Positions 9,882 to 38,245 of a stretch of DNA of 48,377 bases are shown here, piece after piece (the first letter of the stretch is position 1; each line of letters starts with the position of its first letter). This stretch comes from an uncultured Rhodothermales bacterium (GTDB taxonomy: Bacteria > Bacteroidota > Rhodothermia > Rhodothermales > JANQRZ01). Made by a program: the position numbers and the translations under genes. The notes under the pieces are model-generated. The model was not told where the DNA came from. It saw only the letters and a program-made list of their open reading frames with translations, and did no database searches. The DNA is taken from positions 1 to 48,377 of the forward strand of contig CAYTJT010000003.1 in assembly GCA_964438105.1 (NCBI GenBank), given 5' to 3'.

Positions 9882-10406
9882 ATGGCTCAGAGCTTTCAAC
9901 GCGAAAAACCGCCCGCCCGCGTCAACCTATTTCTCGAGGTGGCCAAAGGCGATGCGCAGGAGAAGATCGAGCTCCCCATGCGCCTCATGATCCTCGGCGA
10001 TTACAAGGGGCGCCCCGACGACACCCCGCTCGCCGAGCGCGAGTTGATCAACCTCAACAAGGACAACTTCGAGCAGGTGCTGAAGTCGATGGACGCCAAG
10101 CTCGAGTACACCGTGCAGGACACGCTCAAGGGCGGCGACGAAGAGATGAAGGTCGAGATCGACATCGACTCGATGGACTCGTTCAACCCCGAGGAGGTGG
10201 CGAAGCAGGTGCCCCAACTCAACCGCATGCTCGCGATGCGGAACCTGCTGCAGGACCTCCGCAACCGCGTCGTCTCCGCCAACGACTTCCGCAAGCAGCT
10301 CGAGCAGATCGTCAAGGACGAGGGCGCGCTCGAGAAGCTCGCCGCCGAGCTCGACCAGTTCGTGCCGAAGGAGCAGGAAGGCTCCGGCGACGAAGAGGGA
10401 AGCTGA
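9882..10406 (+). CDS. tssB: T6SS sheath small subunit TssB (VipA)
   Basis: PARVNLFLEV...ELPMRLMILGDYKG...SMDSFNPEEVAKQVPQLNRMLAMRNLL matches the TssB/VipA pattern. 174 aa. Confidence 0.9.
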   Translation: MAQSFQREKPPARVNLFLEVAKGDAQEKIELPMRLMILGDYKGRPDDTPLAERELINLNKDNFEQVLKSMDAKLEYTVQDTLKGGDEEMKVEIDIDSMDSFNPEEVAKQVPQLNRMLAMRNLLQDLRNRVVSANDFRKQLEQIVKDEGALEKLAAELDQFVPKEQEGSGDEEGS

Positions 10407-10468
10407 CCGAGCGGCTACCGCTCACCTCCGCCCATCGACCCCGCCCACGCTAGACCCGAAGAACTACC

Positions 10469-18916: not shown

Positions 18917-18985
18917 CCCGGCCGACAACCGACTCCCTCTGCGACAGCTGCCCCTGATTCCTTAGACCGCGCGGTCCCTACTCCC

Positions 18986-21900
18986 ATGCCTGCTACTCCC
19001 GTCACGACCTTCTCATTCCAAGCCATCGACAGCGGCAACTCGAAGACGTCGTTCGACGTGCTGACGTTTGAGGGGGAGGAGGACATTTCTCGCCCGTTCG
19101 AGTACCGGCTCACCCTGAAGCACCCCACCGCGCTCGCGGACTTCAGCAAGGTGGTGAACCAGAACGCCGAACTCGTGATGGAGCAGGAGTTCGACGACCC
19201 GGGCTCGGACAACCGCGTGACGACGGAGGTGAAGGTGGCCGGCGTCGTGGCGACGCTGCGGGCGAAGCAGAAGTTCGTCGTGGACGACGGACCGGATTAC
19301 GTGACTTACGAAGCCGTGCTCGTCCCCAAGCTCTGGAGGCTGGGGCTGTTCCACCAGAGCCGCATCTTCCAGAACCGCACCGTCGAACAGATCATCGGCG
19401 ACGTGTTCGCGCAGGAGATCAGCGCCGGCGTCCCCGCCCTCAGCCCCGACGACTACTCGATCAAGCTGGACAGGGCCGCGTACGAGCCGCGTGACTTCTG
19501 CGTGCAGTACCGCGAGAGCGATCTCGCCTTCATCCAGCGCCTCATGGAGCACGAGGGGATCTACTACTTCTTCGACCAGGGCAAGCTGATCATCACGGAC
19601 AGCAAGGCCAAGGCGGAACCGGAATCGGCGACGTCACCCAAGAGTGTGAGCTTCAAGGAGGGGGACGGGGGGACGGTCCAGGCGGACGACGTGATCTTCC
19701 GGTTCCAGTACGACGAGCGGGTCGTGCCGCGGGACGTGCGGGTGCGGGACTACGATTATGAGGCGTTCGCGAGCTCGGAGGAAGTACCGAAGGAGACCGC
19801 GACGTCCAACGCGGGCAGTCCCTCCCCGACGGGGCAGGAATACGCCCGCGTCGGCACGCACTACGAGCACGGGCTCTTCAGCGAGAAACGGCACTTCAAC
19901 CCGTTCAAGAAAAGCGACGACCCCGACCTCTATTCGCAGTACTGCGATGCGGAGGGCAAGCGGAAGGAGCGGGTCACCCGGATCGCCGACGTCCGGGCTC
20001 AGGAGCTAGAGGCGCGGCGCATCAGCGGGCAGGGCAAGTCCAACGTGCTCCGCCTCCAGGCGGGGCACGTCTTCAAGTTCGTCGGGGACTTCCCCTTCCC
20101 CAATGGGGCATCAGACTCCAGCGAATTCCTGGTCACGTCGGTGCACCACCGGTATCACCCCATCGAGATCGATGGGGCGGCGACGGCCTCGTCCGTCTAC
20201 CGCAACGCTTTCACCTGCTTGCCCACCAGCCTGCAGTACCGCCCGCCACGCGCCACGCCGGTCCCTCGCGTGCCCGGCGTGATGACGGCGAAGGTGGTCT
20301 CCGAACCTGAGCCCGTTCCGCCAGATCCGAACGATTCAAAGTACAGCGACCCCATGTACAGCCTGGAGGAAGACACGGAGGCCTACGACAAGGCTTTGGC
20401 CAAGTACAGGGAGTGCTTGCCGTTCGAGGGGCCGGTGGATGAGGAGGGCAAGTACCGGTTGCAGATCCCCTTCGATGCCGCCGACCAGCAGGCGCCGTCG
20501 AAGCGCGTGCGCTTGGCCCAGCCGCACGCCGGGACGGACTACGGCTTCCACTTCCCCAACCGGCCCGACAGCGAGATGGTATTCGCCTGTGTCGACGGCG
20601 ACCCCGACCGCCCGCTCGGGCTCTCGATGGTGGCAAACCCGTGGACCCACTCGCCTGTGCCGACGACGGCACGGGAACTGCGCACTCAGAACCCGTGGAC
20701 GGGTGCTCTCGAAGACAAAACCATCACGTATGACGAATACAAAAATGTTATCCGCACCGCACGTGGTCACCAGATCGTCATGGACGACAATGATGCGAGC
20801 TCGAACGTGGGTATTACGATACAAACAGGTAGCAACATAAACGAAAGTTCGATTTCCAATGTGGATGTCTATTGGAAGACCCGAATCGAGATGGGGGGGT
20901 ACAGGGTCAAGAGCGGGATCGAACAGGTGATCGACGGGGTCACGGAGGCGTTCGGGTGGCTAAAGAACCTGGTGCTCCGAGATCTGCCGAGCTTGTCGGG
21001 GATGATCATGGGCATGGCCGCCTCGCACGTCGAGTCGGGCAACTACGGCGAAGACACCTTCGGCACTACGACTCCTGTGGGAATCGATATGAAAACAGAT
21101 CAGGCCATAAATATTAAGGGCCTGAAGGGGGTGAATATCACATCGCCGAATTTGTTCGGGATGTTCAGTAGCAATTTCGTAGGGGATTCTAAAACGCAGA
21201 AAAACAACCAGCACGCGGTCGAATCTATCGCTAAGGGTATAAAGAAAATCCTGTGGCAAGAAGTGGCCAATGAAGCGGTCAACGATTTCCTAGAGGTCGA
21301 AGAGAGGCGGAAGTCGTACGAGTCGGAGACGTCGAAGCCCTGGAGCCCGCACGTGTTGGAGGGGTTCAAGGTGAGAGAGAATTTCTACAAGCTGCGGATC
21401 AGAGCTTTCGTCAACACTATCCTGAATCGGACCGGTGTAAACGTGTTCTCCGCTGGCGAGCTTAAAATGGCTTCGCTAAACAGCGCAACTGTGGTGGCGG
21501 GTGACGAGGGGATGCTGCTCAAGTCGTTCGGCCCCATCGAGCAAAAAGCAAATACGGGGGTAGATATAAAGACGGATCAGGGGATCTCTATCAAAGCTAC
21601 GGGGAGGCAGTTCGAGGGTAAAGGGGTCGTCAAAGTCATTAAGGGTTGGACGGATGATCTGAAGAAGAAGTCGCCCGTCCTCGGGGTGCCTCTGAGACTG
21701 GTGCTGGACCTAATCGCAAGCACGGATTCCTTCTCTACCAAAGATATAGAAGATTTTGGTATAAACATTCACAACGAAAGCGGTGCCATACATTTGCACA
21801 CAGGGGGGGAGCGGGGAGAGGCCGAGAAGGGGGCGGGCGATATTATGATGAACGCTCATGGTACTGGGAACGTAAGGACATTTTCCAGGCAAGGCCTCCT

Positions 21901-22381
21901 CCATTCGTGGTCTGGAGCTGCGGGCGAGGCATTCTGGATGGAGGTGGGTAAACGTGAGAAAAACGATAAAAACAATCCCCTTGGTAAGGACGCTATTGCG
22001 GGGCTACTCCGCCTGAAGAAGAACAAGGCTCACGCGTTCTCGTCGGAAGAGGTGGTGCTCAACGTGGGCAAGGATTACGAAGACGAAAAGAGTTCGATCA
22101 AAATAGAGGAAAAGAGAATCGCGATCACGTGCGGCGAATCCAGCATCGTCCTCAACAGCGACGGTTTGATCGAAATCATTGGGAAAGATATTATGATTGA
22201 GGGGTCGGGGGATGTGTCGGTCGAGGGTATGAACGTTGACGTAGTGGCTACGCAGGATGCCCACGTCGAAGGCGGGATGTCATTCAGTAGTAAAGGGAAG
22301 ATGACCCAGTTGGAAGGGGAGATGTTCACGGTCAAGGGCAAAATGACCCAGGTGTCAGGCCAAATGATCAAGGTCGGTTAA
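18986..22381 (+). CDS. vgrG: T6SS spike protein VgrG (TssI) with about 550-aa low-GC C-terminal extension
   Basis: gp27-like N-terminus (FEGEEDISRPFEYRLTL). gp5 OB-fold (RVRLAQPHAGTDYGFHFPNRPDSEMVFACVDGDPDRP). Terminal beta-helix-like repeats (ITCGESSIVLNSDGLIEIIGKDIMIEGSGDVSVEG...MIKVG). At 1131 aa it is far longer than the 650-750 aa I would expect for a minimal VgrG. Confidence 0.9.
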   Translation: MPATPVTTFSFQAIDSGNSKTSFDVLTFEGEEDISRPFEYRLTLKHPTALADFSKVVNQNAELVMEQEFDDPGSDNRVTTEVKVAGVVATLRAKQKFVVDDGPDYVTYEAVLVPKLWRLGLFHQSRIFQNRTVEQIIGDVFAQEISAGVPALSPDDYSIKLDRAAYEPRDFCVQYRESDLAFIQRLMEHEGIYYFFDQGKLIITDSKAKAEPESATSPKSVSFKEGDGGTVQADDVIFRFQYDERVVPRDVRVRDYDYEAFASSEEVPKETATSNAGSPSPTGQEYARVGTHYEHGLFSEKRHFNPFKKSDDPDLYSQYCDAEGKRKERVTRIADVRAQELEARRISGQGKSNVLRLQAGHVFKFVGDFPFPNGASDSSEFLVTSVHHRYHPIEIDGAATASSVYRNAFTCLPTSLQYRPPRATPVPRVPGVMTAKVVSEPEPVPPDPNDSKYSDPMYSLEEDTEAYDKALAKYRECLPFEGPVDEEGKYRLQIPFDAADQQAPSKRVRLAQPHAGTDYGFHFPNRPDSEMVFACVDGDPDRPLGLSMVANPWTHSPVPTTARELRTQNPWTGALEDKTITYDEYKNVIRTARGHQIVMDDNDASSNVGITIQTGSNINESSISNVDVYWKTRIEMGGYRVKSGIEQVIDGVTEAFGWLKNLVLRDLPSLSGMIMGMAASHVESGNYGEDTFGTTTPVGIDMKTDQAINIKGLKGVNITSPNLFGMFSSNFVGDSKTQKNNQHAVESIAKGIKKILWQEVANEAVNDFLEVEERRKSYESETSKPWSPHVLEGFKVRENFYKLRIRAFVNTILNRTGVNVFSAGELKMASLNSATVVAGDEGMLLKSFGPIEQKANTGVDIKTDQGISIKATGRQFEGKGVVKVIKGWTDDLKKKSPVLGVPLRLVLDLIASTDSFSTKDIEDFGINIHNESGAIHLHTGGERGEAEKGAGDIMMNAHGTGNVRTFSRQGLLHSWSGAAGEAFWMEVGKREKNDKNNPLGKDAIAGLLRLKKNKAHAFSSEEVVLNVGKDYEDEKSSIKIEEKRIAITCGESSIVLNSDGLIEIIGKDIMIEGSGDVSVEGMNVDVVATQDAHVEGGMSFSSKGKMTQLEGEMFTVKGKMTQVSGQMIKVG

Positions 22382-22408
22382 CGGTCCATCAGACGAACCC
22401 ACGTAGCT

Positions 22409-22738
22409 ATGCCAAAGCCCGCCGCCCAACTCGCCGACAACGCAGGCCACGGTCCCCCCCTCCTCGGGGCCGGCCAGCCGACCGTCCTCATCGCCAACCG
22501 CCCGGCGTGGTGCGTTGGCGACCAGCACACGTGCCCGATCCCGAACGCGCCGCCGCCCGTGGGACCGGGGACGCCGCACGGACCGGGTGTGACCGCGCCG
22601 CCCGGCGCCATCAAGGTGCTCATCAAGAACAAGCCCGCCGCCGCCCTGGGTGACCAGGTGATGGAGCCCGGGGCGGTCGTCCCTCCGATGGTCCCTAACC
22701 CCATCGCGATGGGCGCCCCGACCGTGCTCGTCGGCTGA
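22409..22738 (+). CDS. PAAR-domain spike-tip protein
   Basis: 109 aa. Pattern VLIANRPAWCVGDQHTCP...VLIKNKPAAALGDQV...GAPTVLVG is typical PAAR. Immediately downstream of vgrG. Confidence 0.85.
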   Translation: MPKPAAQLADNAGHGPPLLGAGQPTVLIANRPAWCVGDQHTCPIPNAPPPVGPGTPHGPGVTAPPGAIKVLIKNKPAAALGDQVMEPGAVVPPMVPNPIAMGAPTVLVG

Positions 22739-22747
22739 ACCCGCCTT

Positions 22748-25378
22748 ATGACGATCCGCGCCGACATCGCCACGGGCGAGACCACGCTGGACCGGACCGA
22801 CCTCCGGCTGGAGGGCGCGCTACCGCTCGTGCTCGCGCGGCGCTACCGCAGCGGGGCGCCGGCCGGGATCTTCGGCATGGGGTGGGAGCACGGGCTCGAC
22901 CGGACCCTCCGCGTCGAGGCGGACCGCGTCGTCTACCGCGATGGGGCGGGCCGCGAGACCGTCTTCGCACCGATCCCCGTGGGCATGGAGGCGCGCCACC
23001 CCGAGGGCCTCACGCTCCAGCGCCACGCTGACGGCTACGTCGTCTTCGCCTCGCCCCGCCTGCAGGAGGTTTTTCGGACCGGATCGGGCGGCGGCTCGCT
23101 GCTGCTTGAGCGGATCGTGGACCCCAACGGCAACCGGATCAAGCTGACGTACGCGGGGGACCGGCTTGCGGAGGTCTCGGCCTCGGGCGGACAGCGCGTT
23201 CGGTTTGCCTACGCCGGAGGCGTCGTCACGCAGATCGCCGTTGCGGGCGCGGACGGCCGGGCGGTGCCGGTCCGGACGTTTCGCTACGGGCCGGGCGGCA
23301 CGCTCGTCGCCGAGACCGACGCGGCGGGGCGGACGACGGAGTACGCCTACGACCGCGGCCTCCTCGTGCGCGCGGGCTCCGGCCCCGCTGCGTGGCTAGC
23401 GCAGTACGACGACGGGGGGCGCTGCCTCGCCCTCTGGCGTGCCGACGGGACCGCCGCCACGCACCTCGCCTACGACGCGCTCCGGCAGACGACGCGCGCC
23501 GTCGGCCTCGACGGGAGGCAGACGCTCTACCGCCACGCCCTCGGCACGTCCGGATCGGTCGTGCTCGAACGGGAAGGCGCCGCAGGCGGAGGGCTCCACT
23601 ACTACTACGACGAGGCGCAGCGGCTCATCGGCTACGACGACGCGGGCGGTACCGTCGTCACGTTTCAGCGGGTCGACCCGGCCGAGGGCGAGCTGGTACA
23701 GATCGACGGCGAGCGCCGGTTCCTCACGGCGACGTTGAACGAGGCCGGTCTCATCGCAGCCGTCGAGGGGGGAGGCGAAGGCGCGTTCTCGCTCGACTAC
23801 GATGAGCGGTTCAACCCCGTCCGTCTTACGACTCCGCTCGGGTCGGTGTGGGCGGTCGAGCGCGACGCGAGAGGGCGTGCGTCTGCGGTCGTAAGCCCCA
23901 CGGGGCATCGCGTCATTCTGCGGCGGGAGGGGCCCGCGCTCACGGTCGAGGGACCGGGGGGGGCGAGGCTCTGGCTCACGGCCGACGTGCAGGGGCGGAC
24001 CGCGACGCGGCGCGATCCCTCCGGGCGGGAGATGCGCTTCCGCTACGACGCCGAGGGGCGGCTGACCGACGCCGAGGTCGCAGACGCGTACCGCATCGCG
24101 TGGGAGCGGGACGGTGCGGGCCGCCTCGTCCGCGTCGCGGACTCCGAGCACGCCGAGGCGCGGTGGGTGCGGGACGGCGCCGGCCGCGTCGTAGCCGTCG
24201 AGACCCGGGGGGACCGCGTCCGACTCGACTATGACCTCGCGGGGCGCATCACCGCGGCGACCGGCGAGGCCGGGGTGGTCCGCTTCGCGTACGACGAGCA
24301 GGACCGGCTACGCTACGGACGCGGTCCAGCTTGGATGACCTTCAGCTACGACGAGGGCGAGACGGCGGCGAAGACGGCGGCGTGGCGCCGGGTCTTCGGG
24401 CCGAACGACGAACTCCTCGGAGAGCAGGTAGAGGCGGAGAGCCTCCGTTTCCGCTACCGCGGAACGGGCGAGCTGCTCGCCCTCGAGACGAAGCGGGGCG
24501 ATGAGAAAGAGGCGCACCGGATCACCTACGATGAAGAGGGCCGGCCGACCCGAGTCGAGCGGGGCGGAGCCGCCGCGCTGGCCTACGACGCGGACGGGGT
24601 GCTCAGAGCCGTGACGGCAGATCCGGACGGCGAGGCGGTCGCCCTCCGCTTGGAATACGACGACCGGCTTCACCTCTCGTCGCTCTGCCGTGGCGCGTCG
24701 TCGTGGCACGCCGTCGTCGATGCGGCCGGCCGGCTGACCGACGTGGGAGAAGTGAAGCTCCGCTACGACGCGCTCGACCGGTGCGTTGCCGTCCGGGTGG
24801 GAGAGAGGGGCGAACGGCCAACGCGGGGCGAAGGCGCGGAACGGGTGGAGCTAGGGGAGGGGCTGAGCGTGATCGTAGCGGAGCGCGGCGTCGCGCTCGT
24901 CGCCGAGGTAGCGGGAGTGCCCATTCCTCTGTGGGCGCGCGAGGAAGTGCGGCGGCAGCCGCTCCCCCTGCCTGCGCGGCTCGCACGCGCCCTCGTGCGG
25001 GGCCCTCAGGCGGCGCTCGCATCGGCGTGGGAGGGGCCGGGCCCGCCCGGCGACGGGTGGCGGCGGCTCGCGAGCGCCGTCGATGCGAGCGCCGCGTTTC
25101 CGAGCATGTCCGCCCTCGAGCTGCCGTGGCCCGCGTTCGATCTCGGGGTGTTGGCTCGGTATGACCCTCACGCCAGAGAGCGCGGAGCTGGGGTGCTCCC
25201 CCGCGACCAGCCGGACCCCGCGCGTGCGCCCGACGCCGCGCTCACCGGCTCGCACCGCCGAGGCGAGCTCCATCCCCGCTCGTGGGCGGAGCGAGCGCAC
25301 GGCCAGCGGTTGGCCCCTGCGGTCGTGGCCGCCAACCCGGCCGCCTACGCCCTGCACCTCTACCGCGCCCTCACCTGA
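22748..25378 (+). CDS. Rhs/YD-repeat protein, atypical (no recognisable RHS core or toxin boundary)
   Basis: Rhs-type N-terminus (TDLRLEGALPLVLARRYRSG...GMGWEHGLD). Many YD repeats (TEYAYDRG, RFRYDAEGRL, RFAYDEQDRL, ITYDEEGRP, LAYDADGVL, LRYDALDRC). No YYDPxxGRF...DPxGL core motif seen by eye. Start is 9 nt after the PAAR stop. Confidence 0.8.
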   Translation: MTIRADIATGETTLDRTDLRLEGALPLVLARRYRSGAPAGIFGMGWEHGLDRTLRVEADRVVYRDGAGRETVFAPIPVGMEARHPEGLTLQRHADGYVVFASPRLQEVFRTGSGGGSLLLERIVDPNGNRIKLTYAGDRLAEVSASGGQRVRFAYAGGVVTQIAVAGADGRAVPVRTFRYGPGGTLVAETDAAGRTTEYAYDRGLLVRAGSGPAAWLAQYDDGGRCLALWRADGTAATHLAYDALRQTTRAVGLDGRQTLYRHALGTSGSVVLEREGAAGGGLHYYYDEAQRLIGYDDAGGTVVTFQRVDPAEGELVQIDGERRFLTATLNEAGLIAAVEGGGEGAFSLDYDERFNPVRLTTPLGSVWAVERDARGRASAVVSPTGHRVILRREGPALTVEGPGGARLWLTADVQGRTATRRDPSGREMRFRYDAEGRLTDAEVADAYRIAWERDGAGRLVRVADSEHAEARWVRDGAGRVVAVETRGDRVRLDYDLAGRITAATGEAGVVRFAYDEQDRLRYGRGPAWMTFSYDEGETAAKTAAWRRVFGPNDELLGEQVEAESLRFRYRGTGELLALETKRGDEKEAHRITYDEEGRPTRVERGGAAALAYDADGVLRAVTADPDGEAVALRLEYDDRLHLSSLCRGASSWHAVVDAAGRLTDVGEVKLRYDALDRCVAVRVGERGERPTRGEGAERVELGEGLSVIVAERGVALVAEVAGVPIPLWAREEVRRQPLPLPARLARALVRGPQAALASAWEGPGPPGDGWRRLASAVDASAAFPSMSALELPWPAFDLGVLARYDPHARERGAGVLPRDQPDPARAPDAALTGSHRRGELHPRSWAERAHGQRLAPAVVAANPAAYALHLYRALT

Positions 25379-25381
25379 TCT

Positions 25382-26428
25382 ATGGAAACCGCCTCCCTCG
25401 ACACCGATCGGCTTCGACCCGGGGCCGACCTCCGCGGGGCCGACCTCCGGGGCACTCCCCTCCAAGGGGCTAACCTGGAGGGGGCCGACCTCGCTGGAGC
25501 GGATCTCCGCGGCGTCGCCTTCGAGAAGACCCGAATGGCAGGGGTCGACTTCACGGGGGCCGACCTCCGGGGGGCCCGCCTCGCGAATGCCGCGCTGCCT
25601 CGCGCGGTGTTCGCGAGGGCGGACCTGACGGACGCGACGTTCGAGCGGTGCCTGCTCGACGACGCGTCATTCGCGAGCGCCCAGCTCGGCGGGGCCACCT
25701 TCGCGTCGTGCCTCCTCAGCCGGGGGGGCTTCCGCGGGGCCTCGCTCCGAGGCTGTGTCATCGACGCCTCGATCGCAGAAGCGGCGCAGTTCGAGGGGTG
25801 CGATTTGGAGGGGGCGGACCTCAAGGCCACCCTCTTCGCCAACGCCAGCTTCGCCGGGGCCCGGCTCGTCAGCGCGAACCTCGAGCAGGCCCTCCTCACC
25901 GACGCCGACCTCGCCGGGGCGGACTTCACCGATGCCGTGCTCTCCGGCGCCATCCTCGAGAGGGCAAGCGCACCGGGCGCCGTTTTCCGCGGCGCGTTTC
26001 TCGTAGCGACCTTCGCCCGGCGGGCGGACCTCTCGGGGTGCGACTTCTCCGGGGCGAAGCTCTCCGTCGGCACGTTCACGCGGGCCACGCTCGCACGGTC
26101 GACGTTCTTCCACTCGACGGCCGAGAACGCCGTCTTCGAGTACGCCGATCTGCGTGGGGCCAAGCTGAGCCAGTCGTCGTTCAACTTCTCTAACTTCGTG
26201 GGGGCCGAACTCGCCGGGGCGCAGGCAGGGGCGTGCAGCTTCTTCGGCGCCGACTTCTTCTGGGCCTCGGTCGGCGAGTTCGGGCGGGCGCAGTGCGACC
26301 TCGAGTCGGCGCGGATGCCGGAGCCGGTCACGCCGGCCGCCGGGCCCGGCTCCACGCCTCCGCCGGTTCGGCCGGTGCCGCTCTACCGGCAGCCCGCTTC
26401 CGCCGTCGAAACCCGCCCGGGCTCATGA
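25382..26428 (+). CDS. Pentapeptide-repeat protein
   Basis: Almost the entire 348 aa consists of A(D/N)LxG-type pentapeptides (GADLRGADLRGTPLQGANLEGADLAGADLRG...). Pro-rich C-terminal tail. Start is 3 nt after the Rhs stop. Confidence 0.9.
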   Translation: METASLDTDRLRPGADLRGADLRGTPLQGANLEGADLAGADLRGVAFEKTRMAGVDFTGADLRGARLANAALPRAVFARADLTDATFERCLLDDASFASAQLGGATFASCLLSRGGFRGASLRGCVIDASIAEAAQFEGCDLEGADLKATLFANASFAGARLVSANLEQALLTDADLAGADFTDAVLSGAILERASAPGAVFRGAFLVATFARRADLSGCDFSGAKLSVGTFTRATLARSTFFHSTAENAVFEYADLRGAKLSQSSFNFSNFVGAELAGAQAGACSFFGADFFWASVGEFGRAQCDLESARMPEPVTPAAGPGSTPPPVRPVPLYRQPASAVETRPGS

Positions 26429-27480
26429 ACGTCGTCAACGACACACCCTTCGTGGACGGCCTCGCGCTGGGGATGGGGCCGGACCGCCGGTCCTGTCTCG
26501 CCCCCATCCTCAAAGCGACGTTCCGCATGCCCGGCGGCGCCGACGGCGCGCCCGCGCCGGTCGCCGACGAGCAGCTCCCGATCACGGCCGACGACGAGTT
26601 CTACAAAGGCGATGTCACCGGCAGCATCCGGCTCGAAAGCGACGCCGTCCCGTTCAAGCCCCGCGCCGACGTCGTGCTCGTGGGGCGGGCGTACGCGCCG
26701 GGCGGCAAGCCCGTGCCCGTGCTCGACGCCGGGCTCCGCGTCGGGCGGGCGCAGCAGGCCGTCCGCGTCTTCGGCGATCGGCGGTGGGTCTTCCCGACGC
26801 GGCTCGTCCTCGTGCCGGTCGTGTCCGACCCGGAGCCGTTCACCGAGATGCCGCTCGTCTACGAGCGCGCCTTCGGCGGGTTCGACCACAAGGGGCGGGC
26901 GTGGTGCGCGCAGAACCACGTCGGGCGCGGCTTCATCGGGAAGAAGACGCGCGAGTCGGTGGACGGCAAGCCGCTCCCGAACCTCGAGGACCCCCGCCGC
27001 CCGATCCGCTCGTGGGACGACCAGCCCGCGCCCGTCGGGTTCGGGTTCTACGGCCGGAGCTGGCAGCCGCGCGCCGCGCTCACGGGCCGCGCGGTGGACG
27101 ATCTCGACGCCGAGTTCGGCCTGCCCGCTGACTTCGACTTCGGCTTTTACAACGGGGCGCATCCCGCCCTCCAGGTCCCCGGCTACCTCGCCGGGAACGA
27201 GGAGGTCGAGCTTCGGCACCTCACGCCCGACGGCTACCGACGCTTCCGGCTGCCCGGTCTCCGGCCCCGGGTCACCCTCCGGCTCTACGACGGCGCGCCC
27301 GACCCGGACCCCGCCGCCCCCGACGAGCGCCCGGCGAGCGCACACCCGGTCGCCGTTCACCTCGATACCCTCGTGCTCTTCCCCGACGACGGCGTGCTCA
27401 CCGCCGTGTGGCGCGGGCACCACCCGCTCCCCGGCCTCGCCCTCGACACGGTCGCGGGCATCGACTACGCACTCACCTAA
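26425..27480 (+). CDS. DUF2169-family T6SS adaptor-like protein
   Basis: Start is an internal ATG of track ORF 26233..27480 and overlaps the upstream stop as ATGA. MNVVNDTPF...ILKATFRM...DAVPFKPRADVVLVGRAYAPGGKP...VRVFGDRRW matches the DUF2169 pattern as I recall it. Confidence 0.75.
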   Translation: MNVVNDTPFVDGLALGMGPDRRSCLAPILKATFRMPGGADGAPAPVADEQLPITADDEFYKGDVTGSIRLESDAVPFKPRADVVLVGRAYAPGGKPVPVLDAGLRVGRAQQAVRVFGDRRWVFPTRLVLVPVVSDPEPFTEMPLVYERAFGGFDHKGRAWCAQNHVGRGFIGKKTRESVDGKPLPNLEDPRRPIRSWDDQPAPVGFGFYGRSWQPRAALTGRAVDDLDAEFGLPADFDFGFYNGAHPALQVPGYLAGNEEVELRHLTPDGYRRFRLPGLRPRVTLRLYDGAPDPDPAAPDERPASAHPVAVHLDTLVLFPDDGVLTAVWRGHHPLPGLALDTVAGIDYALT

Positions 27481-27492
27481 TTCCTGACCGCC

Positions 27493-29316
27493 ATGAGCGA
27501 CGTGCACAAAAACGTTGGCCTCCACATCACCTCCGACCCCGATACGACCTCGGTCACGCAGCCCGGCCGGGGCGCCCAGCGTCGAGCGGCGCCGATGCCG
27601 CTGCGCCTCCTGCTCGTCGCCGACCTCGCGCCGCAGCTGCGCCCCACGCGCACCGAAGAGCGCGTGCGCCGCGTGGACGCCAACAGCTTCGCGGAGTTGA
27701 TGGGGGACTGGCAGCCCGCGCTCCGCCTCGACGTGGAGAACCGGCTGAGCGCGCAGCCGCAGTCGCTGGAGATCGGGCTGCGCTTCACCTCGCTGAAGGA
27801 CTTCGCGCCCGCCGCGATCGCGCGACAGGTCCCGGCGCTCGCGCGCCTGCTCGCGATCCGCACCGAGGTCCACGGCGTCCGCACGAAAGGGACCGACCGC
27901 GAGACGTTCCGCGACCGCCTCGGCGAGGCCGGGGTCGACGCGGCCTCGGCCGACGGGCTCTACGGCCAACTGACCGTCGAGCCGCCGAAGCCGAAGCCCG
28001 CGCCGAAGCCTCAAGAGGACGACGCCATCGACCGGCTGATGGGGATGGTGGATGCGGGCGACGGAGCGAGTGACGAGCCGCCGCGCACCGCCGGCGACGC
28101 CCTCGCCGAAGCTGTTTCGGACGGCGCGCCACGGATCGCCACGTCGGCGGCCGACGAGATCCTGGAAGACTTCGACCGGAAGCTCGGCGGCCAGCTCCGC
28201 GCGATCCTCGAGCACCCGGACCTGCGCCGGCTCGAAGCGGCGTGGCGTGGGCTGAGGCTGCTCGTGGACCGCCTCCCGTTCCGCGAGGGCGTTCAGCTCG
28301 ACGTGCTCCCCGCGCGGCGCGACAGCCTCAGCGAGACGATCTATCACCAGGTGCTCATCCCCGAGCACGAGGCCGACGGAGCGGGCGACCCGCTCGCGGC
28401 CGTGATCCTCGGCTTCGCCTTCGACAACGGCCAGGCCGACGTCGAGTTGCTCGGGGATATCGCCGAGACGGGGGCGAGCCTGCAGGTCCCGTTCATCGCC
28501 TCGGCGAGCCCGACCTTCTTCGGCTTCGAGTCGGCCGAATCGATCGAGGCGCTGCCGTTCGTGCCGCAGCACGTCCAGGGGCCGGAGTACATCCATTGGA
28601 ATAAGCTGCGCGAGCGGGAAGACGCGCGGCACGTCGTGCTCGCCTTCCCGCCGTTTCTGCTGCGGGCGCCCTACGGCCGGGAGCATCCGTCGAAAGAGGT
28701 GCCGGTGGACGAGGAGGGGTTCCTGTGGGGCGGGGGAGCGCTGGCCGTCGCCCTCGGCATCGGGGACTCGTTTGCGGAGACCGGCTGGCCGACGCACCCC
28801 GCCGGGCGCCGCGTCGGGGACCTCCCGATCCGCGCGACGGAGCGAGGGCAGACGCCGCTGGCCGTTCTGCTGCCCGAGGCGAAAGCGGCGGAGCTGGCCG
28901 ACGTCGGCTTCGTCCCCCTCACCGGCGCGGCTGACCGCGACTGGGTGCAGGTCGCGCGGACGCCCACGCTGGCACGCCCCCAGACCTTCGACGACGCTAC
29001 GAAAACGGCGCACGCGGCGGCGCACGCGACGCTGCCCTGCGGGCTGTTCACGGCCCGCGCGGCCCACCGTATCCTGAAGCTGCCCGCCGAGTTGGACGCC
29101 GAGGCGCCGCTGGAGGCGAAACGGGAAGCCATCGTGAACCGCCTCCGTACGTTCCTGGGGGGGGACCTCGCGGCCGACGCCGTGACGGCGGACCCGGTCC
29201 CGGACGCCGAGGTCGAGGGGCACGACCTGCTAGCCGTCCGTCTTCAGCCGCCCCGGCACGTGCTCGACACGCCGGTGCATCTCGCTATCGGGTTGCCGGT
29301 GCCCCGGGGGGCGTGA
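27493..29316 (+). CDS. Fused TssB-like/TssC-like sheath paralog (single 607-aa polypeptide)
   Basis: Residues about 34-125 align with TssB at 9882..10406: PMPLRLLLVADL vs ELPMRLMILGDY, and FTSLKDFAPAAIARQVPALARLLAIR vs IDSMDSFNPEEVAKQVPQLNRMLAMR. Residues about 216-607 align with TssC residues about 80-510: HPDLRRLEAAWRGLRLLVDR vs HHDAFQEMESSWRSLKFLVDR, LAFPPFLLRAPYG vs LTFPRFMLRLPYG, and VGFVPL vs LGFVPL. A Pro/Ala/Asp-rich linker joins the halves. Confidence 0.75.
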   Translation: MSDVHKNVGLHITSDPDTTSVTQPGRGAQRRAAPMPLRLLLVADLAPQLRPTRTEERVRRVDANSFAELMGDWQPALRLDVENRLSAQPQSLEIGLRFTSLKDFAPAAIARQVPALARLLAIRTEVHGVRTKGTDRETFRDRLGEAGVDAASADGLYGQLTVEPPKPKPAPKPQEDDAIDRLMGMVDAGDGASDEPPRTAGDALAEAVSDGAPRIATSAADEILEDFDRKLGGQLRAILEHPDLRRLEAAWRGLRLLVDRLPFREGVQLDVLPARRDSLSETIYHQVLIPEHEADGAGDPLAAVILGFAFDNGQADVELLGDIAETGASLQVPFIASASPTFFGFESAESIEALPFVPQHVQGPEYIHWNKLREREDARHVVLAFPPFLLRAPYGREHPSKEVPVDEEGFLWGGGALAVALGIGDSFAETGWPTHPAGRRVGDLPIRATERGQTPLAVLLPEAKAAELADVGFVPLTGAADRDWVQVARTPTLARPQTFDDATKTAHAAAHATLPCGLFTARAAHRILKLPAELDAEAPLEAKREAIVNRLRTFLGGDLAADAVTADPVPDAEVEGHDLLAVRLQPPRHVLDTPVHLAIGLPVPRGA

Positions 29317-29490
29317 CCGTCCGGGAGGCCATCCGTTTCCCGGGATCGACCGGGGCGGTGGCCTATCGCAGGGACGAACCACGTTACCCTTCCAAGGGAT
29401 AGGCACCGATTCTATATTGCTCTCCCCCTTGCCTTATTGGAGTAAACGACGTTAGCCTAACCACGCCCCGCTTTCTCCCAACGACATCCC

Positions 29491-31185
29491 TTGAGCGCTT
29501 CTCACTCATCGTCCTCCCAGCCGGTGGAGGCGCGGCCCGCCGTACGGGCTCGCGTCGAGGGGAGCTCTCTGCCCGGGATGGAGCGGTCGTTCACCGAGCC
29601 GTTCACGATAGGGCGGGGCATGCAGGCGACGCTGCACGTGGATTCCGGACGCGTGAGCCGGATCCACGCGGAGGTGGTCTTCAGCGGCGGCGCGTGGCTG
29701 CTCCGCGACGCCGGGAGCACGAACGGGACCTACCACGACGGCGAGCGGATCGAAACTATACAATTGGAGGGAGACGTCGTGGTGCGGCTCGGGCGGGAAG
29801 GCCCCACCGTGTACCTCAGCGTCGATCCAACGGCCGCAGAGGGGACGGGCCGAGCGACCGCGGTCAGCGAGAACACTCCGTTCCTGAGCAGCTTCAGTGA
29901 GCCCTCCGCGGCCGAGGACGGAGACGCGACGTCGCCGCAGCGGCCGAGCGGGGCGTATCGGGCGGCGGATGGGGAGGTGCCCGGCGGCGCTCCGTCTGTC
30001 CCTCCGGTGCCCCCGAGAGCGGACGCGCCGGACACCCATTCCGTGAGCCAGGTAATCCGGCGTTACTTCAACGCGGAGGACGACGAGGCGGCGGGGGATC
30101 GGACGCGGATGATCCGGCAGGCGTACCAGCAGGTGCAGGCCGAGCAGAAGCGGACGTACGGCGGCATCATCGGCATCGTCGCGCTGCTGCTCGTCGTCGC
30201 GCTGGGCTTCGCCGTCTGGCAGCAGATCCGGGTGGAGCGGCTGGAGCAGACCGCGCAGGGGCTGTTCTACGAGATGAAGGAGCAGGACCTCGCGACGGCC
30301 CAGCTACGCCTCGTGGCCGAGGAGACCGGCAACGCCGACCTCGAAGCCCAGCTCGACGACCTGGAGGAGCGGCGCGTCCGCCAGGCGGCGCTCTACGAGG
30401 GGTACATCGAAGAGCTCGGCGTGTACCGCTCGCTCTCGCCGCAGGAGCGCGAGATCTACCGCGTCGCGCGGATCTTCAACGAGAGCGAGTTCTCGATCCC
30501 GGCGGGGTTCGTGCGCGAGGTGAAGGGGGTCATCAGCGAGTGGCAGAAGTCCAGCCGGTTCGAGAACGCGATCCTGCGCGCCGAGCGCAACGGCTACACC
30601 CCCATCATCGTCCGCACGATGAAGGAGTACGGGCTGCCGCCCGAGTTCTTCTACCTCGCCATGCAGGAGAGCAACTTCAACGAGTGCGCCGTCGGGCCGG
30701 AGACGCGGTGGGGCATCGCCAAGGGGATGTGGCAGTTCATCCCCACGACGGGGCAGGCCTACGGGCTGTCCCCCGGCCCCCGCAGCGACATCCGCGTCTG
30801 CGACGAGCTCGACGACCGCCACGACTTCTCTAAGGCCACCGACGCCGCCGCGCGGTACCTCCTGAACATCTACACCGAGCTGGCGCAGGCCTCGGGCCTG
30901 CTCGTGATGGCGTCCTACAACTGGGGCGAGCACCGCGTCTCCTCCAAACTGGACCGGCTGCCGGAGACCCCGCTCGAACTCGTCCGCCGCGACCTCGAAG
31001 ACATCCCGGCGAACCCGCAGCAGCGCAACTACTGGCGGTTCCTCAACGAGTACCGCGACCGGATGCCGGAGGAGACGAAGAACTACGTCCTCCACATCTT
31101 CGCCGCCGCCGTAATCGGGCAAGACCCCCGCCTCTTCGGGTTCGACTTCGACAACCCGCTGGCGCCCTACCTTCAAGGCCCCTGA
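29491..31185 (+). CDS. FHA domain - TM helix - periplasmic coiled coil - lytic transglycosylase (SLT) fusion protein
   Basis: FHA: FTIGRGMQATLHVDSGRVSRIHAEVVFSGGAWLLRDAGSTNGTYHDGERI. TM: IIGIVALLLVVALGFAVW. SLT: FYLAMQESNFNECAV...GIAKGMWQFIPTTG...MASYNWGE. The track start is TTG at 29491; GTG at 29524 is an alternative. The first ATG (29578) would cut into the FHA fold. Confidence 0.8.
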   Translation: MSASHSSSSQPVEARPAVRARVEGSSLPGMERSFTEPFTIGRGMQATLHVDSGRVSRIHAEVVFSGGAWLLRDAGSTNGTYHDGERIETIQLEGDVVVRLGREGPTVYLSVDPTAAEGTGRATAVSENTPFLSSFSEPSAAEDGDATSPQRPSGAYRAADGEVPGGAPSVPPVPPRADAPDTHSVSQVIRRYFNAEDDEAAGDRTRMIRQAYQQVQAEQKRTYGGIIGIVALLLVVALGFAVWQQIRVERLEQTAQGLFYEMKEQDLATAQLRLVAEETGNADLEAQLDDLEERRVRQAALYEGYIEELGVYRSLSPQEREIYRVARIFNESEFSIPAGFVREVKGVISEWQKSSRFENAILRAERNGYTPIIVRTMKEYGLPPEFFYLAMQESNFNECAVGPETRWGIAKGMWQFIPTTGQAYGLSPGPRSDIRVCDELDDRHDFSKATDAAARYLLNIYTELAQASGLLVMASYNWGEHRVSSKLDRLPETPLELVRRDLEDIPANPQQRNYWRFLNEYRDRMPEETKNYVLHIFAAAVIGQDPRLFGFDFDNPLAPYLQGP

Positions 31186-31235
31186 GGAGCGGCGCGTGTC
31201 CCGCAGCTTCCTCCCGACCCCTGACCTGTTGCCTC

Positions 31236-31997
31236 ATGCTGTGGAAGCGCTCCCCCCGCTCTCTGTCCATCCGCTTCGGCGCTAAGTCGGACGTCGGCCA
31301 GGTCCGTTCGGAGAACCAGGACGACTACGGTCGTTTTCCCGAGGTCCGGGCCGAGCGCAACGGGGATCAGGTGTTCATTGTAGCCGACGGGATGGGGGGG
31401 CACGAAGACGGCGGGCAGGCGAGCCGATCGGCTGTGGAGGCGGTTCGCGACACGTACTTCGAGGACCGGGAGGCCCCGGTGGAAGACCGGCTGCGCCGGG
31501 CGGTGCAGGAGGCGAACACCCGGGTCTACGCGTTCGCGCAGAGCGGGGAGATCCCCAAACGGATGGGCACCACGTGCACCGTCCTCGCGGTCGTGCACGG
31601 CGAGGCCTACCTCGCGCACGTTGGGGACAGCCGGGCGTACCGCATCGGGCGGAAGGGCATGACGCAGCTCACGCGGGACCACACCCTCGTCGAAGCCCTG
31701 ATGCGGGAGGGCGTGCTGACGGAGGCGGAGGCGGCGCAGCACCCGCAGCGGCACGCGCTCGTCCGCGCCATCGGCATCCAGCCCGACGTCGACGTCGACG
31801 TCGAGCGGCTCGCGACCCCGCAGTCCGGCGACGCGTTTCTACTGTGCTCCGACGGCCTCTCCCGCGTCAAGGATGCGGAGATCGGCGACATCGTCCGCGC
31901 CGAGACGCCGCAGCAAGCCGCCGAATCGCTCGTGCGCATCGCCAACGAGCGGGGGGGGCACGATAATGTGACGGTACTAGTGGTTAAGATTGAGTAG
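31236..31997 (+). CDS. pppA: PP2C-family Ser/Thr phosphatase (PppA-like)
   Basis: Motifs SDVGQVRSENQD, VADGMGGH, GTTCTV, HVGDSRAY, LLCSDGL, GGHDNVTVLVV. Confidence 0.9.
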   Translation: MLWKRSPRSLSIRFGAKSDVGQVRSENQDDYGRFPEVRAERNGDQVFIVADGMGGHEDGGQASRSAVEAVRDTYFEDREAPVEDRLRRAVQEANTRVYAFAQSGEIPKRMGTTCTVLAVVHGEAYLAHVGDSRAYRIGRKGMTQLTRDHTLVEALMREGVLTEAEAAQHPQRHALVRAIGIQPDVDVDVERLATPQSGDAFLLCSDGLSRVKDAEIGDIVRAETPQQAAESLVRIANERGGHDNVTVLVVKIE

Positions 31998-32059
31998 TTT
32001 CCGGGTCTAGTACGCTGTCATTCCTGGCTCCGCGACGCTCGACCGCCGACACGCCCTCT

Positions 32060-38240: not shown

Positions 38241-38245
38241 CCCCG

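What the first reader, a model, noticed from the sequence alone, without database searches (positions are those of the whole stretch)
22409..29316. Five-gene translationally coupled module PAAR / Rhs / pentapeptide / DUF2169 / fused sheath paralog
The junctions are 9 nt, 3 nt, an ATGA overlap and 12 nt, so the five ORFs look like one coupled unit directly behind vgrG.

From established knowledge, DUF2169 proteins are adaptors that load specific cargo onto a cognate VgrG. They are often found next to pentapeptide-repeat genes and PAAR-like effectors.

The order here differs from that usual layout. PAAR and Rhs are separate genes, DUF2169 comes after the pentapeptide protein rather than directly after vgrG, and the gene following the adaptor is not a toxin but a sheath-like fusion. 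The unit may be an undescribed spike-loading or firing-control cassette rather than a simple effector/immunity pair.
Basis: partly seen in the sequence, partly recalled or inferred. Interest (0 to 1): 0.7.

Follow-up and report, generated by a model that had tools for sequence, protein, structure and literature searches.

The report
Spike-tip module plus fused sheath paralog
The five tightly packed genes are real, but they are two things side by side: a widespread secretion-spike loading module that here carries a toxin-less Rhs shell, and next to it an undescribed single-chain copy of the type VI secretion sheath that belongs to the machine's backbone rather than to the module.

Summary
PAAR, Rhs, pentapeptide-repeat (PRP), DUF2169 and a fused TssB-TssC gene follow vgrG with junctions of 9, 3, -4 and 12 nt, inside a complete T6SS locus of an uncultured Rhodothermales bacterium.

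Comparison of about 130 related loci splits the five genes into two units.

1. VgrG-PAAR-Rhs-PRP-DUF2169 is a self-contained module.
- It recurs in Rhodothermales, Planctomycetota and Acidobacteriota-type loci, including an orphan island and T6SS loci with no fused sheath gene.
- It resembles the Tvp/DUF2169 spike-chaperone systems. It differs in using a zinc-type PAAR instead of DUF4150, separate DUF2169 and PRP proteins, no TvpC, and a separately encoded Rhs.
- Relatives outside Rhodothermales carry armed Rhs toxins with SUKH immunity genes.
- The Rhodothermales Rhs is short (859-935 aa), lacks the cleavage motif and a variable toxin, has a conserved C-terminus, and has no immunity gene.

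2. The fused TssB-TssC is a complete, diverged sheath protomer.
- It is followed by an FHA-SLT gene in 19 of 21 Rhodothermales loci, whatever cargo lies upstream.
- It belongs to a large, deep-branching fused-sheath family that I found described nowhere.

Verdict: new variant of a known kind. The sheath paralog is the more interesting open question.

The parts
18986..22381 (+). VgrG (1131 aa), head of the module. Its extreme C-terminal tip (about aa 1030-1110) is conserved wherever the PAAR subfamily occurs. An insert of about 300-400 aa (about aa 640-1030) is encoded by unusually GC-poor DNA.
   Evidence: Phage_GPD E=5e-64. Tip hits in L049-L054. GC 0.52 at 21001-22000. In-frame GC3 falls from 0.9 to 0.55-0.75.
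22409..22738 (+). Small zinc-type PAAR cone protein of a distinct subfamily, with the conserved motif HTCP[IV]PNAPPPxGPGTPHGPG.
   Evidence: PF05488 E=5.7e-12, with no DUF4150 hit even at E<=10. 108 clusters at >=51% identity across phyla. 25% identity to neighbouring DUF4150 proteins.
22748..25378 (+). Short DUF6531-Rhs shell (876 aa). It has no RHS-core cleavage motif and no variable toxin, its C-terminal ~140 aa are conserved, and no immunity gene follows it.
   Evidence: AF2 pLDDT 90.9. Foldseek to T6SS Rhs cores, TMq 0.58.
25382..26428 (+). Pentapeptide-repeat protein, TvpB-like (putative 'seat-belt' chaperone of the spike tip).
   Evidence: PF00805 E=3.8e-46. Orthologues in all module loci. 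Role by analogy to TvpB (PMC13373197).
26425..27480 (+). Single-domain DUF2169 protein, TvpA-like (putative chaperone of the cone protein).
   Evidence: PF09937 E=1.5e-82. PDB 8vth E=1e-10. Role by analogy (PMC11883445).
27493..29316 (+). Single-chain TssB-TssC sheath paralog (607 aa). Not part of the module; a conserved backbone or accessory gene of this T6SS lineage.
   Evidence: AF2 pLDDT 88.3. Foldseek TssC TMt 0.75 and TssB 0.63. Synteny. Family size.
29491..31185 (+). FHA - one TM helix - SLT lytic transglycosylase. Conserved downstream partner of the fused sheath gene (the TTG start is uncertain).
   Evidence: FHA E=1.4e-13 and SLT E=3.5e-14. TM helix at 220-248. Adjacency in 19 of 21 loci.
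31236..34045 (+). PP2C phosphatase (31236-31997) and Ser/Thr kinase with PEGA domains (32060-34045). Threonine-phosphorylation block conserved with the fusion and FHA-SLT.
9882..12001 (+). Canonical TssB (9882-10406) and TssC (10469-12001) of the same locus. The fusion is 22% and 29% identical to them.

Best explanation
Two units lie next to each other.

Unit 1 (18986-27480) is a VgrG-led spike-tip module.
- The small PAAR caps the VgrG trimer.
- The DUF2169 protein (TvpA-like) and the pentapeptide-repeat protein (TvpB-like) act as cytoplasmic chaperones. They shield and hold the PAAR/VgrG tip, and probably dock the separately encoded DUF6531-Rhs shell onto it before firing.
- In related phyla the Rhs is an armed, self-cleaving toxin with an immunity gene.
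- In this Rhodothermales lineage the Rhs is a short, non-polymorphic shell with no cleavable toxin and no immunity gene. It may be a conserved effector that needs no self-immunity, or a purely structural tip.

Unit 2 (27493-29316) is a complete TssB-TssC sheath protomer in one chain.
- It is an old paralog of the canonical TssB and TssC encoded 16 kb upstream.
- It belongs with the T6SS backbone and the downstream FHA-SLT/PP2C/kinase block.
- It most likely co-assembles with the TssBC sheath as a specialised subunit. It could be an initiating or terminating ring, or a phosphorylation-controlled assembly element.

What is shown: gene identities, folds, synteny and the dissociation of the two units. 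What is inferred: the chaperone roles, Rhs docking, and any role of the fusion in the sheath.
For: Module
- The order VgrG-PAAR-Rhs-PRP-DUF2169 occurs in the window, L003, L012, L048, L049 and L050. L011 shows it partially. L005 has a second VgrG inserted.
- The same families stand behind VgrG in Acidobacteriota L025/L026, Isosphaeraceae L052 and L054.
- In 80 metagenome loci seeded on the PAAR: VgrG lies upstream in 20/21, and Rhs downstream in 39/43. Of 18 loci with >=7 kb downstream, Rhs is present in 16, PRP in 13 and DUF2169 in 13.

PRP is not the immunity protein
- Armed relatives have a SUKH immunity gene between Rhs and PRP and still keep the PRP.

Short Rhs is a maintained family
- About 40 clusters of 859-935 aa match over their full length, followed by a sharp drop to generic 1200-1500 aa Rhs proteins.
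- The C-terminus carries invariant residues.
- There is no PxxxxDPxGL motif, whereas L025 and L054 have it.
- The AF2 model is confident, pLDDT 90.9.

DUF2169 and PRP roles
- Published Tvp and DUF2169 work supports chaperone roles (PMC13373197, PMC11883445). Class III PRP-containing systems go with small effector-less PAAR proteins.

Fusion is separate
- FHA-SLT follows the fusion in 19/21 Rhodothermales loci, while upstream genes vary.
- Sister fusions differ in whether the module is present: L003+/L004-, L050+/L001-, L012+/L021-.
- L048 has 8.7 kb between the module and the fusion.
- None of the 80 PAAR-seeded loci has a fusion.

Fusion is a full protomer
- It aligns with TssB aa 21-172 and TssC aa 86-474.
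- Foldseek gives TMt 0.75 over 414 of 432 VipB residues.
- The N-terminal strand motif, the linker helix LDRLLGMVD (compare TssC SILDSIFAQV) and the C-terminal strands are conserved.
Against: - The 12-nt DUF2169-fusion junction is among the tightest in the locus. The fusion follows the module directly in 7 of 8 Rhodothermales module loci (every one except L048), and lies 1.2 kb after DUF2169 in the distant L054. Co-expression and some functional link are therefore not excluded.
- Published DUF2169 chaperoning concerns DUF4150 'PIPY' cones, and DUF2169 is reported to be rarely next to PAAR genes. The chaperone role here is an extrapolation.
- No TvpC-like gene is present.
- I could not inspect model coordinates, so whether the short Rhs forms a closed cage is unknown.
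- Single-query phmmer detection gives lower bounds for PRP and DUF2169.
- L129/L130 have PAAR, PRP and DUF2169 without Rhs and without the fusion. Rhs is therefore not obligatory, and FHA-SLT can stand without the fusion.
- The two Salinivenus contigs have the fusion without FHA-SLT.
Confidence: 0.7

Rival explanations
1. One reading: all five genes form one dedicated spike-loading or firing-control cassette. The fused sheath protein would work directly with DUF2169, PRP, PAAR and Rhs.
For: The junctions are the tightest in the locus. The five-gene order recurs in L003, L011, L012, L049 and L050. A fusion lies 1.2 kb downstream of DUF2169 in the distant L054.
Against: The two parts dissociate in both directions.
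- Module without fusion: L052; 0 of 80 metagenome loci; separated by 8.7 kb in L048.
- Fusion without module: L001, L002, L004, L021 and L047.
- Module presence is patchy among sister fusions.
Confidence: 0.1
2. Plain effector/immunity pair: Rhs is the toxin and the pentapeptide-repeat protein is its immunity protein, by analogy with Qnr/MfpA-type target protection. PAAR and DUF2169 would be ordinary loading factors.
For: The PRP directly follows the Rhs with a 3-nt gap. The PRP scores against Qnr/MfpA-type models, but far below their cut-offs.
Against: - Armed relatives carry a separate SUKH immunity gene between Rhs and PRP and still keep the PRP.
- In several loci the PRP lies before the Rhs, or is present without any Rhs (L051, L082, L093, L130).
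- The Rhs here lacks the cleavage motif and a variable toxin.
- PRP proteins are required chaperones in Tvp class III systems (PMC13373197).
Confidence: 0.07
3. The short Rhs is a decaying remnant and the module in this lineage is non-functional.
For: Loss of the RHS core motif, the toxin and the immunity gene relative to Acidobacteriota-type relatives.
Against: - About 40 clusters of similar length, down to 30% identity, retain invariant residues throughout, including the C-terminus.
- The ORFs are intact in all loci.
- The AF2 fold is confident.
Confidence: 0.05
4. The fused TssB-TssC does not enter the sheath. It would be a soluble regulator or decoy, for example one that titrates ClpV or TssA. 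Alternatively it would be the phospho-target read by the FHA domain of the neighbouring FHA-SLT protein, gating assembly.
For: - Conserved adjacency to FHA-SLT, PP2C and the kinase.
- A near-invariant Thr19 in a conserved segment that AF2 predicts as disordered, and a conserved ClpV-helix-like motif in the linker.
Against: - The complete protomer fold and both terminal strand motifs used for sheath meshing are retained.
- Related fusions in Acidobacteriota and Poribacteria stand in tandem directly after tssM, where sheath genes would be expected.
- No phosphorylation data exist.
Confidence: 0.25

Closest known systems
Tvp accessory complexes, class III (Serratia marcescens VgrG1-TvpAB-TvpB-TvpC-Paar1; Burkholderia TagAB/TagB/TagC/TagD) - PMC13373197
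   Same: A DUF2169 protein and a pentapeptide-repeat protein are encoded with a long VgrG and a small, effector-less cone protein. The published role is to chaperone the VgrG-PAAR tip.
   Different: - The cone is a zinc-type PF05488 PAAR, not DUF4150.
- DUF2169 is single-domain and not fused to a PRP.
- The gene order is reversed: PAAR first, DUF2169 last.
- There is no DUF3540 or DUF6484 TvpC.
- A DUF6531-Rhs gene sits inside the module.
DUF2169 synteny types A, B and C, and the DUF2169-PIPY chaperone model (Sachar et al. 2025, PMC11883445; PDB 8vth)
   Same: DUF2169 homology (PF09937; 8vth E=1e-10). Genetic linkage to vgrG and to a cone protein in 1:1 ratio (L048 has two DUF2169 genes, each with its own cone).
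   Different: That study found DUF2169 rarely next to PAAR-domain genes. Here it is consistently paired with a PAAR subfamily. None of the three published syntenies contains an Rhs.
PAAR-Rhs polymorphic toxins of T6SS (P. protegens RhsA 7q97, P. aeruginosa Tse5 8cp6, Photorhabdus Tre23 7pq5, Advenella VgrG-Rhs 8qja)
   Same: YD/RHS shell fold (foldseek E down to 4e-45). The N-terminal DUF6531 region aligns with the start of the RhsA cage.
   Different: - PAAR is a separate gene.
- The shell is shorter (876 aa in total, against 1020-1085 aa cores).
- There is no PF03527 core or PxxxxDPxGL autocleavage motif.
- There is no variable toxin and no immunity gene.
- The C-terminus is conserved across the family.
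Canonical T6SS sheath TssB/TssC (VipA/VipB 3j9g, 5mxn; M. xanthus 5urw)
   Same: Both Pfam domains, full protomer fold, conserved terminal strand motifs, and a ClpV-helix-like motif.
   Different: - One polypeptide with a Pro/Lys-rich linker.
- Only 22-29% identical to the canonical copies in the same locus.
- Separate deep clade.
- Present in addition to TssB and TssC.
Multiple sheath paralogs of extracellular contractile injection systems (Afp2/3/4, Pvc2/3/4) - analogy recalled from the literature; related entries appear among the foldseek hits (6rao, 9qgl)
   Same: A contractile machine encoding more than one sheath-fold protein, with paralogs taking position-specific layers near the baseplate.
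   Different: Different lineage. No evidence here for where the fused protein sits.

Membership tests
Tvp / DUF2169 spike-chaperone systems | DUF2169 (TvpA) protein encoded in a vgrG island | tested here: met
   PF09937 E=1.5e-82 covering aa 22-330. PDB 8vth E=1e-10. VgrG lies 4 genes upstream.
Tvp / DUF2169 spike-chaperone systems | Partner cone protein is a DUF4150 'PIPY' domain | tested here: not met
   Only PF05488 PAAR_motif hits, even at E<=10. PAAR-like motifs and His/Cys residues are present. 25% identity to the DUF4150 proteins of L002 and L048.
Tvp class III | DUF2169 fused to a C-terminal pentapeptide-repeat domain (TvpAB) plus an independent PRP (TvpB) | tested here: inconclusive
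   An independent PRP is present (PF00805 E=3.8e-46). DUF2169 is single-domain, 351 aa. The two activities are present, but as separate proteins and in reverse order.
Tvp class II/III | TvpC VgrG-mimic (DUF3540 or DUF6484) | tested here: not met
   No such domain in any ORF from 18986 to 29316. None in the orthologous modules called.
Tvp / DUF2169 spike-chaperone systems | Physical pre-complex with PAAR and VgrG, required for firing | not testable with these tools
   No multimer prediction or experiment was available.
Rhs polymorphic toxin effectors | RHS/YD-repeat shell | tested here: met
   RHS_repeat E=1.2e-32 and DUF6531 E=2.5e-18. Foldseek to T6SS Rhs cores E=4e-45.
Rhs polymorphic toxin effectors | RHS core (PF03527) with the PxxxxDPxGL autoproteolysis motif | tested here: not met
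   No PF03527 hit. No such motif in the window or in L048-L050, whereas L025 and L054 have it.
Rhs polymorphic toxin effectors | Variable C-terminal toxin followed by a cognate immunity gene | tested here: not met
   The C-terminal ~140 aa are conserved, with invariant W771, P785, L802, T833, G834 and W846. The next gene, 3 nt away, is the PRP.
T6SS sheath TssB/TssC | VipA and VipB domains with the sheath protomer fold | tested here: met
   PF05591 and PF05943. TIGR03358 and TIGR03355 hit below their cut-offs. AF2 pLDDT 88.3. Foldseek TMt 0.75 (TssC) and 0.63 (TssB).
T6SS sheath TssB/TssC | C-terminal gp25-like domain of TssC (PF18945) | tested here: inconclusive
   No Pfam hit. However, the BLAST alignment reaches TssC aa 474 of 510, and the model has the terminal strands 564-568, 577-584 and 597-604.
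T6SS sheath TssB/TssC | Two separate subunits that polymerise around Hcp and are recycled by ClpV | not testable with these tools
   The protein is a single chain. Polymerisation and ClpV binding are inferred only from conserved motifs.

The most novel reading that the evidence does not exclude
The fused TssB-TssC would be a second, functionally distinct class of T6SS sheath protein.
- It would be a single-chain protomer forming a specialised ring (initiator at the baseplate or distal terminator), or acting as an assembly switch read by the neighbouring FHA-SLT/kinase/phosphatase module through its conserved N-terminal Thr19 segment.
- It belongs to an old, large family: about 130 full-length 50%-identity clusters among the best 150 hits.
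- In Acidobacteriota and Poribacteria, where two such fusions stand in tandem after tssM, the family may make up the whole sheath.

Separately, the toxin-less Rhs may be a structural spike cap rather than an effector.
Probability: 0.3. Interest if true: 0.8.

Novelty: new variant of a known kind. Interest (0 to 1): 0.55.

Why it matters
Spike module
- DUF2169/PRP (Tvp) chaperones are currently defined around DUF4150 cone proteins and proteobacterial models.
- This module extends them to a zinc-type PAAR subfamily and to separately encoded Rhs cargo, in phyla where T6SS has hardly been studied.
- It offers a natural series from armed Rhs with immunity to a disarmed, conserved shell. That series could show what an Rhs cage does apart from carrying a toxin.

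Fused sheath paralog
- It would be the first accessory sheath protein of a T6SS-i, if it proves to be one.
- The 2026 review of T6SS accessory factors that I searched never uses the word 'paralog' and none of the passages shown mentions an extra sheath protein. Three phrase searches found no description of natural TssB-TssC fusions, and a fourth for additional sheath or TssC paralogs returned nothing relevant by title or abstract.
- Cultured carriers exist, so the question is experimentally open: Salinibacter ruber, Rubrivirga marina, Rhodocaloribacter litoris and Roseithermus sacchariphilus.

Tried and rejected
- PAAR-Rhs stop-codon read-through. The two ORFs are in the same frame in the window (TGA plus 3 codons), and also in L012 and L050. 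They are not in frame in L003, L048 or L049, so there is no conserved read-through (coordinates).
- The fusion as a recent duplicate of the locus's own TssB and TssC. Rejected: 22-29% identity and a separate deep clade.
- Promoter and terminator scan of 18500-32500. It gave no usable signal inside the five genes: terminator-like hits were at the shuffle expectation, and the four promoter-like hits lie in vgrG or PP2C.
- Pfam and NCBIfam scans of the Rhs C-terminus, the VgrG C-terminal insert and the fusion C-terminus at E<=10. Nothing informative.
- Locus search in metagenomes with the Rhs alignment. It failed for lack of a conserved stretch, so I used the PAAR alignment instead.
- Literature searches for natural TssB-TssC fusions, extra TssC paralogs, or DUF6531 with DUF2169. 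Nothing relevant found.
- Correction: my first GC3 figures for 20901-22381 were computed out of frame and are withdrawn.
- Limit: model coordinates could not be inspected, so closure of the Rhs cage is undetermined.
Full report
**Observation**

The window is about 70% GC. It holds a complete, co-oriented T6SS-i locus: TssK, TssL, TssM, TagF, TssA, TssB, TssC, Hcp, TssE, TssF, TssG, ClpV and VgrG.

Directly behind vgrG (18986-22381) lie the five ORFs of the finding:
- PAAR (22409-22738)
- DUF6531-Rhs (22748-25378)
- a pentapeptide-repeat protein (25382-26428)
- DUF2169 (26425-27480)
- a protein with both VipA and VipB domains (27493-29316)

All five have strong Pfam scores. The junctions of 9 nt, 3 nt, an ATGA overlap and 12 nt are as described. 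They are the shortest in the locus; the next gap, to an FHA-SLT gene, is 174 nt. Translational coupling is inferred from spacing only.

**Are the five genes one unit?**

I fetched 44 genome loci around relatives of the fused sheath protein. I added 10 loci around selected homologues and 80 metagenome loci around relatives of the PAAR. I mapped the window's proteins onto all of them with phmmer.

Module with the fusion, in Rhodothermales-type genomes:
- The order VgrG-PAAR-Rhs-PRP-DUF2169-fusion recurs in L003, L012, L049 (Rhodocaloribacter litoris) and L050 (Salinibacter MAG).
- It appears partially in L011.
- In L005 a second VgrG is inserted between PAAR and Rhs.

Fusion with other cargo upstream:
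- Close relatives of the fusion sit behind entirely different cargo.
- Rubrivirga marina L002 has DUF2169, a DUF4150 protein, Imm11, Imm49 and a HEAT protein.
- Salinibacter ruber L001 has two DUF2169 genes.
- L004 and L021 carry similar non-Rhs islands.
- In Roseithermus L047 the fusion stands with FHA-SLT alone, among unrelated genes.

Module and fusion apart:
- In Rubrivirga sp. IMCC43871 (L048) the module is present, but a second VgrG island of about 8.7 kb separates it from the fusion.
- In Isosphaeraceae L052 the module is an orphan island with no sheath gene nearby.
- None of the 80 PAAR-seeded metagenome loci contains a fused sheath gene. Several of them show canonical tssB and tssC instead.

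What stays constant next to the fusion is the downstream gene. An FHA-TM-SLT protein follows it in 19 of 21 Rhodothermales-type loci with sequence available, at gaps of -41 to +197 nt (L049). PP2C, a PEGA-domain kinase, CsgG/TPR lipoproteins, a FlgD-Ig protein and an outer-membrane barrel usually come next. The exceptions are the two Salinivenus contigs.

In a rough NJ tree of the TssC-like parts, sister fusions differ in whether the module precedes them: L003+/L004-, L050+/L001-, L012+/L021-. The slot between vgrG and the fusion is therefore an exchangeable cargo slot. The fusion is part of the backbone.

**The module**

Seeded on the PAAR alone, the metagenome loci give these counts:
- VgrG upstream in 20 of 21 loci.
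- Rhs downstream in 39 of 43 loci.
- Among 18 loci with at least 7 kb downstream: Rhs in 16, PRP in 13, DUF2169 in 13.

These are lower bounds, because detection used single query sequences.

The PAAR belongs to a distinct, highly conserved subfamily.
- It comprises 108 clusters at 51% identity or more, across Rhodothermales, Planctomycetota and soil metagenomes.
- It carries PAAR-like motifs, His/Cys residues and the stretch HTCP[IV]PNAPPPxGPGTPHGPG.
- It is only 25% identical to the DUF4150 'PIPY' proteins encoded in neighbouring islands. It gives no DUF4150 hit even at E<=10.
- The extreme C-terminus of the VgrG is conserved wherever this PAAR occurs.

The DUF2169 protein matches the solved DUF2169 structure 8vth.

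Published work shows the following:
- DUF2169 (TvpA) chaperones the cone protein.
- In class III Tvp systems, pentapeptide-repeat proteins (TvpAB and TvpB) wrap the VgrG/PAAR tip like a seat belt.
- Class III systems go with long VgrGs and small, effector-less PAAR proteins (PMC13373197).
- DUF2169 is reported to co-occur strictly with DUF4150 and rarely with PAAR genes, in three syntenies, none of which contains an Rhs (PMC11883445).

The window's module is therefore Tvp-like, with these differences:
- a zinc-type PAAR cone
- separate DUF2169 and PRP proteins, in reverse order
- no TvpC
- an Rhs gene between cone and chaperones

**The Rhs**

In Acidobacteriota-type relatives the Rhs is 1131-1153 aa. 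In L025 and L054 it has an RHS core and the PxxxxDPxGL cleavage motif, a C-terminal toxin of about 145-165 aa after the cleavage site, and a SUKH-family immunity gene. The PRP and DUF2169 genes follow. This rules out the PRP as the immunity protein.

The Rhodothermales proteins form a separate family.
- About 40 clusters of 859-935 aa match over their full length down to 30% identity. The scores then drop sharply to generic 1200-1500 aa Rhs proteins.
- They lack PF03527 and the cleavage motif.
- They align only with the first half of the RhsA cage by sequence.
- They still fold confidently as an Rhs-type shell: pLDDT 90.9; foldseek E=4e-45, TMq 0.58 to T6SS Rhs cores.
- Their last ~140 residues are conserved, with invariant W771, P785, L802, T833, G834 and W846. 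They are not polymorphic, and no immunity gene follows.

The Isosphaeraceae Rhs (L052) is also toxin-less, with a degenerate NPLGL site.

I read the Rhodothermales protein as a maintained, disarmed shell. It may be a conserved effector that needs no self-immunity, or a structural tip. Which of the two is not decided here.

**The fused sheath protein**

It aligns with nearly the whole of the locus's own TssB (aa 21-172, 22% identity) and TssC (aa 86-474, 29% identity). It matches solved VipB/TssC and VipA/TssB chains by sequence.

The AF2 model is confident (pLDDT 88.3, pTM 0.85). Only residues 1-28 and the linker from about 165 to 215 have low confidence. Foldseek places the model on TssC (TMt 0.75 over 414 of 432 residues) and on TssB (TMt 0.63).

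The segments predicted as disordered are nevertheless conserved across 60 family members:
- The N-terminal 'VGxxITSDPDxT' segment has mean column identity 0.53, against 0.55-0.58 for the folded body. It corresponds in position to the N-terminal strand of TssB.
- The linker helix 'LDRLLGMVD' scores 0.64, against 0.27-0.35 in its flanks. It resembles the 'SILDSIFAQV' helix at the N-terminus of the locus's TssC. From established knowledge of VipB, that is the ClpV-binding region.
- The C-terminal strands are present.

The protein is thus a complete single-chain protomer that has kept the elements used for meshing into a sheath. This last point is an inference.

It is not a recent duplicate. Fused forms from Rhodothermales, Acidobacteriota, Poribacteria, Nitrospirae and Myxococcota group apart from canonical TssCs.

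A profile search of 1.84 billion representatives lists 134 proteins of 540 aa or more among the best 150. Nearly all of them match across both halves in one stretch, down to E=1e-100.

Three phrase searches found no description of a natural TssB-TssC fusion, and a search for additional sheath or TssC paralogs returned nothing relevant by title or abstract. A 2026 review of T6SS accessory factors never uses the word 'paralog', and none of the passages shown mentions an extra sheath protein.

**Mechanism proposed**

- Module: VgrG is capped by the small PAAR. DUF2169 and the PRP hold the tip in a secretion-competent state, and probably dock the separate Rhs. This is inferred by homology to Tvp systems.
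- Fusion: a specialised sheath subunit, or an assembly element linked to the FHA-SLT/PP2C/kinase block. This is inferred from fold, motifs and synteny. The analogy is with the position-specific sheath paralogs of Afp/PVC particles.
- A regulatory or decoy role is a live alternative. One version would involve phosphorylation of the near-invariant Thr19, read by the FHA domain.

**Verdict**

Its sense that this is more than an effector/immunity pair is also right. The five genes are not one cassette.

The module is a new variant of the Tvp/DUF2169 kind. The fused sheath paralog is an undescribed member of the sheath family whose role is open. Interest 0.55.

Noticed in passing
window 20900-22381 (VgrG codons ~640-1131): The C-terminal part of vgrG is GC-poor for this genome: GC 0.52 at 21001-22000, against about 0.70 elsewhere. 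In-frame GC3 falls from about 0.9 to 0.55-0.75. The region encodes a K/N/I/E-rich insert of about 300-400 aa that is absent from the 821-901 aa VgrGs of L012 and L048-L050. This suggests a foreign or recently recombined spike extension, possibly an effector domain.
   Followed up: partly
window 29491-31185: FHA domain, one TM helix (aa 220-248) and a periplasmic SLT lytic transglycosylase in a single protein. It follows the fused sheath gene in 19 of 21 Rhodothermales loci. This hints at a phospho-regulated peptidoglycan-cutting step for T6SS assembly. In L054 an M15 peptidase occupies a similar position before the fusion.
   Followed up: partly
L018, L022, L024, L025, L026 (Poribacteria, Acidobacteriota): Two different fused TssB-TssC genes stand in tandem directly after tssM, or alone in L018. 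No separate tssB or tssC lies within 10 kb. Fused protomers may make up the whole sheath there.
   Followed up: no
proteins P0397, P0407, P0434, P0441: Representatives of 1116-2151 aa match the fused-sheath profile in 3-6 stretches. These are possibly tandem multi-protomer chains or gene-call fusions.
   Followed up: no
L005 2193-7865: In the closest genome relative, a second VgrG (854 aa) is inserted between PAAR and Rhs. The long VgrG plus PAAR, and VgrG2 plus Rhs-PRP-DUF2169, could therefore be separable sub-units.
   Followed up: partly
window 22736-22750: PAAR and Rhs are in the same reading frame, separated only by TGA and three codons. The same holds in L012 and L050 but not in L003, L048 or L049, so read-through fusion is not conserved.
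   Followed up: yes
window 29317-29490: This is the largest spacer in the locus (174 nt, GC 0.60, with an AT-rich 'TTCTATATTG' stretch). It could hold an internal promoter or a transcript end between the fusion and FHA-SLT. In Rubrivirga-type loci the two genes overlap instead.
   Followed up: no
L129 and L130 (metagenome, PAAR 72% identical): A variant with the order VgrG-PRP-PAAR-DUF2169-FHA_SLT-PP2C has neither the Rhs nor the fused sheath gene. Both are therefore dispensable in some relatives.
   Followed up: no
window 33850-39349: CsgG/LpoB-like TPR lipoproteins, a FlgD-Ig/Por-tail protein and an OMP barrel are conserved downstream of the kinase in most Rhodothermales T6SS loci. No TssJ was seen. 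They may be the outer-membrane part of this system.
   Followed up: no
L052 8605-11652 (Isosphaeraceae): An orphan VgrG-PAAR-Rhs-PRP-DUF2169 island. Its Rhs keeps a degenerate core (NPLGL) with only about 25 residues after it. This would be a second, independent toxin-less Rhs.
   Followed up: partly
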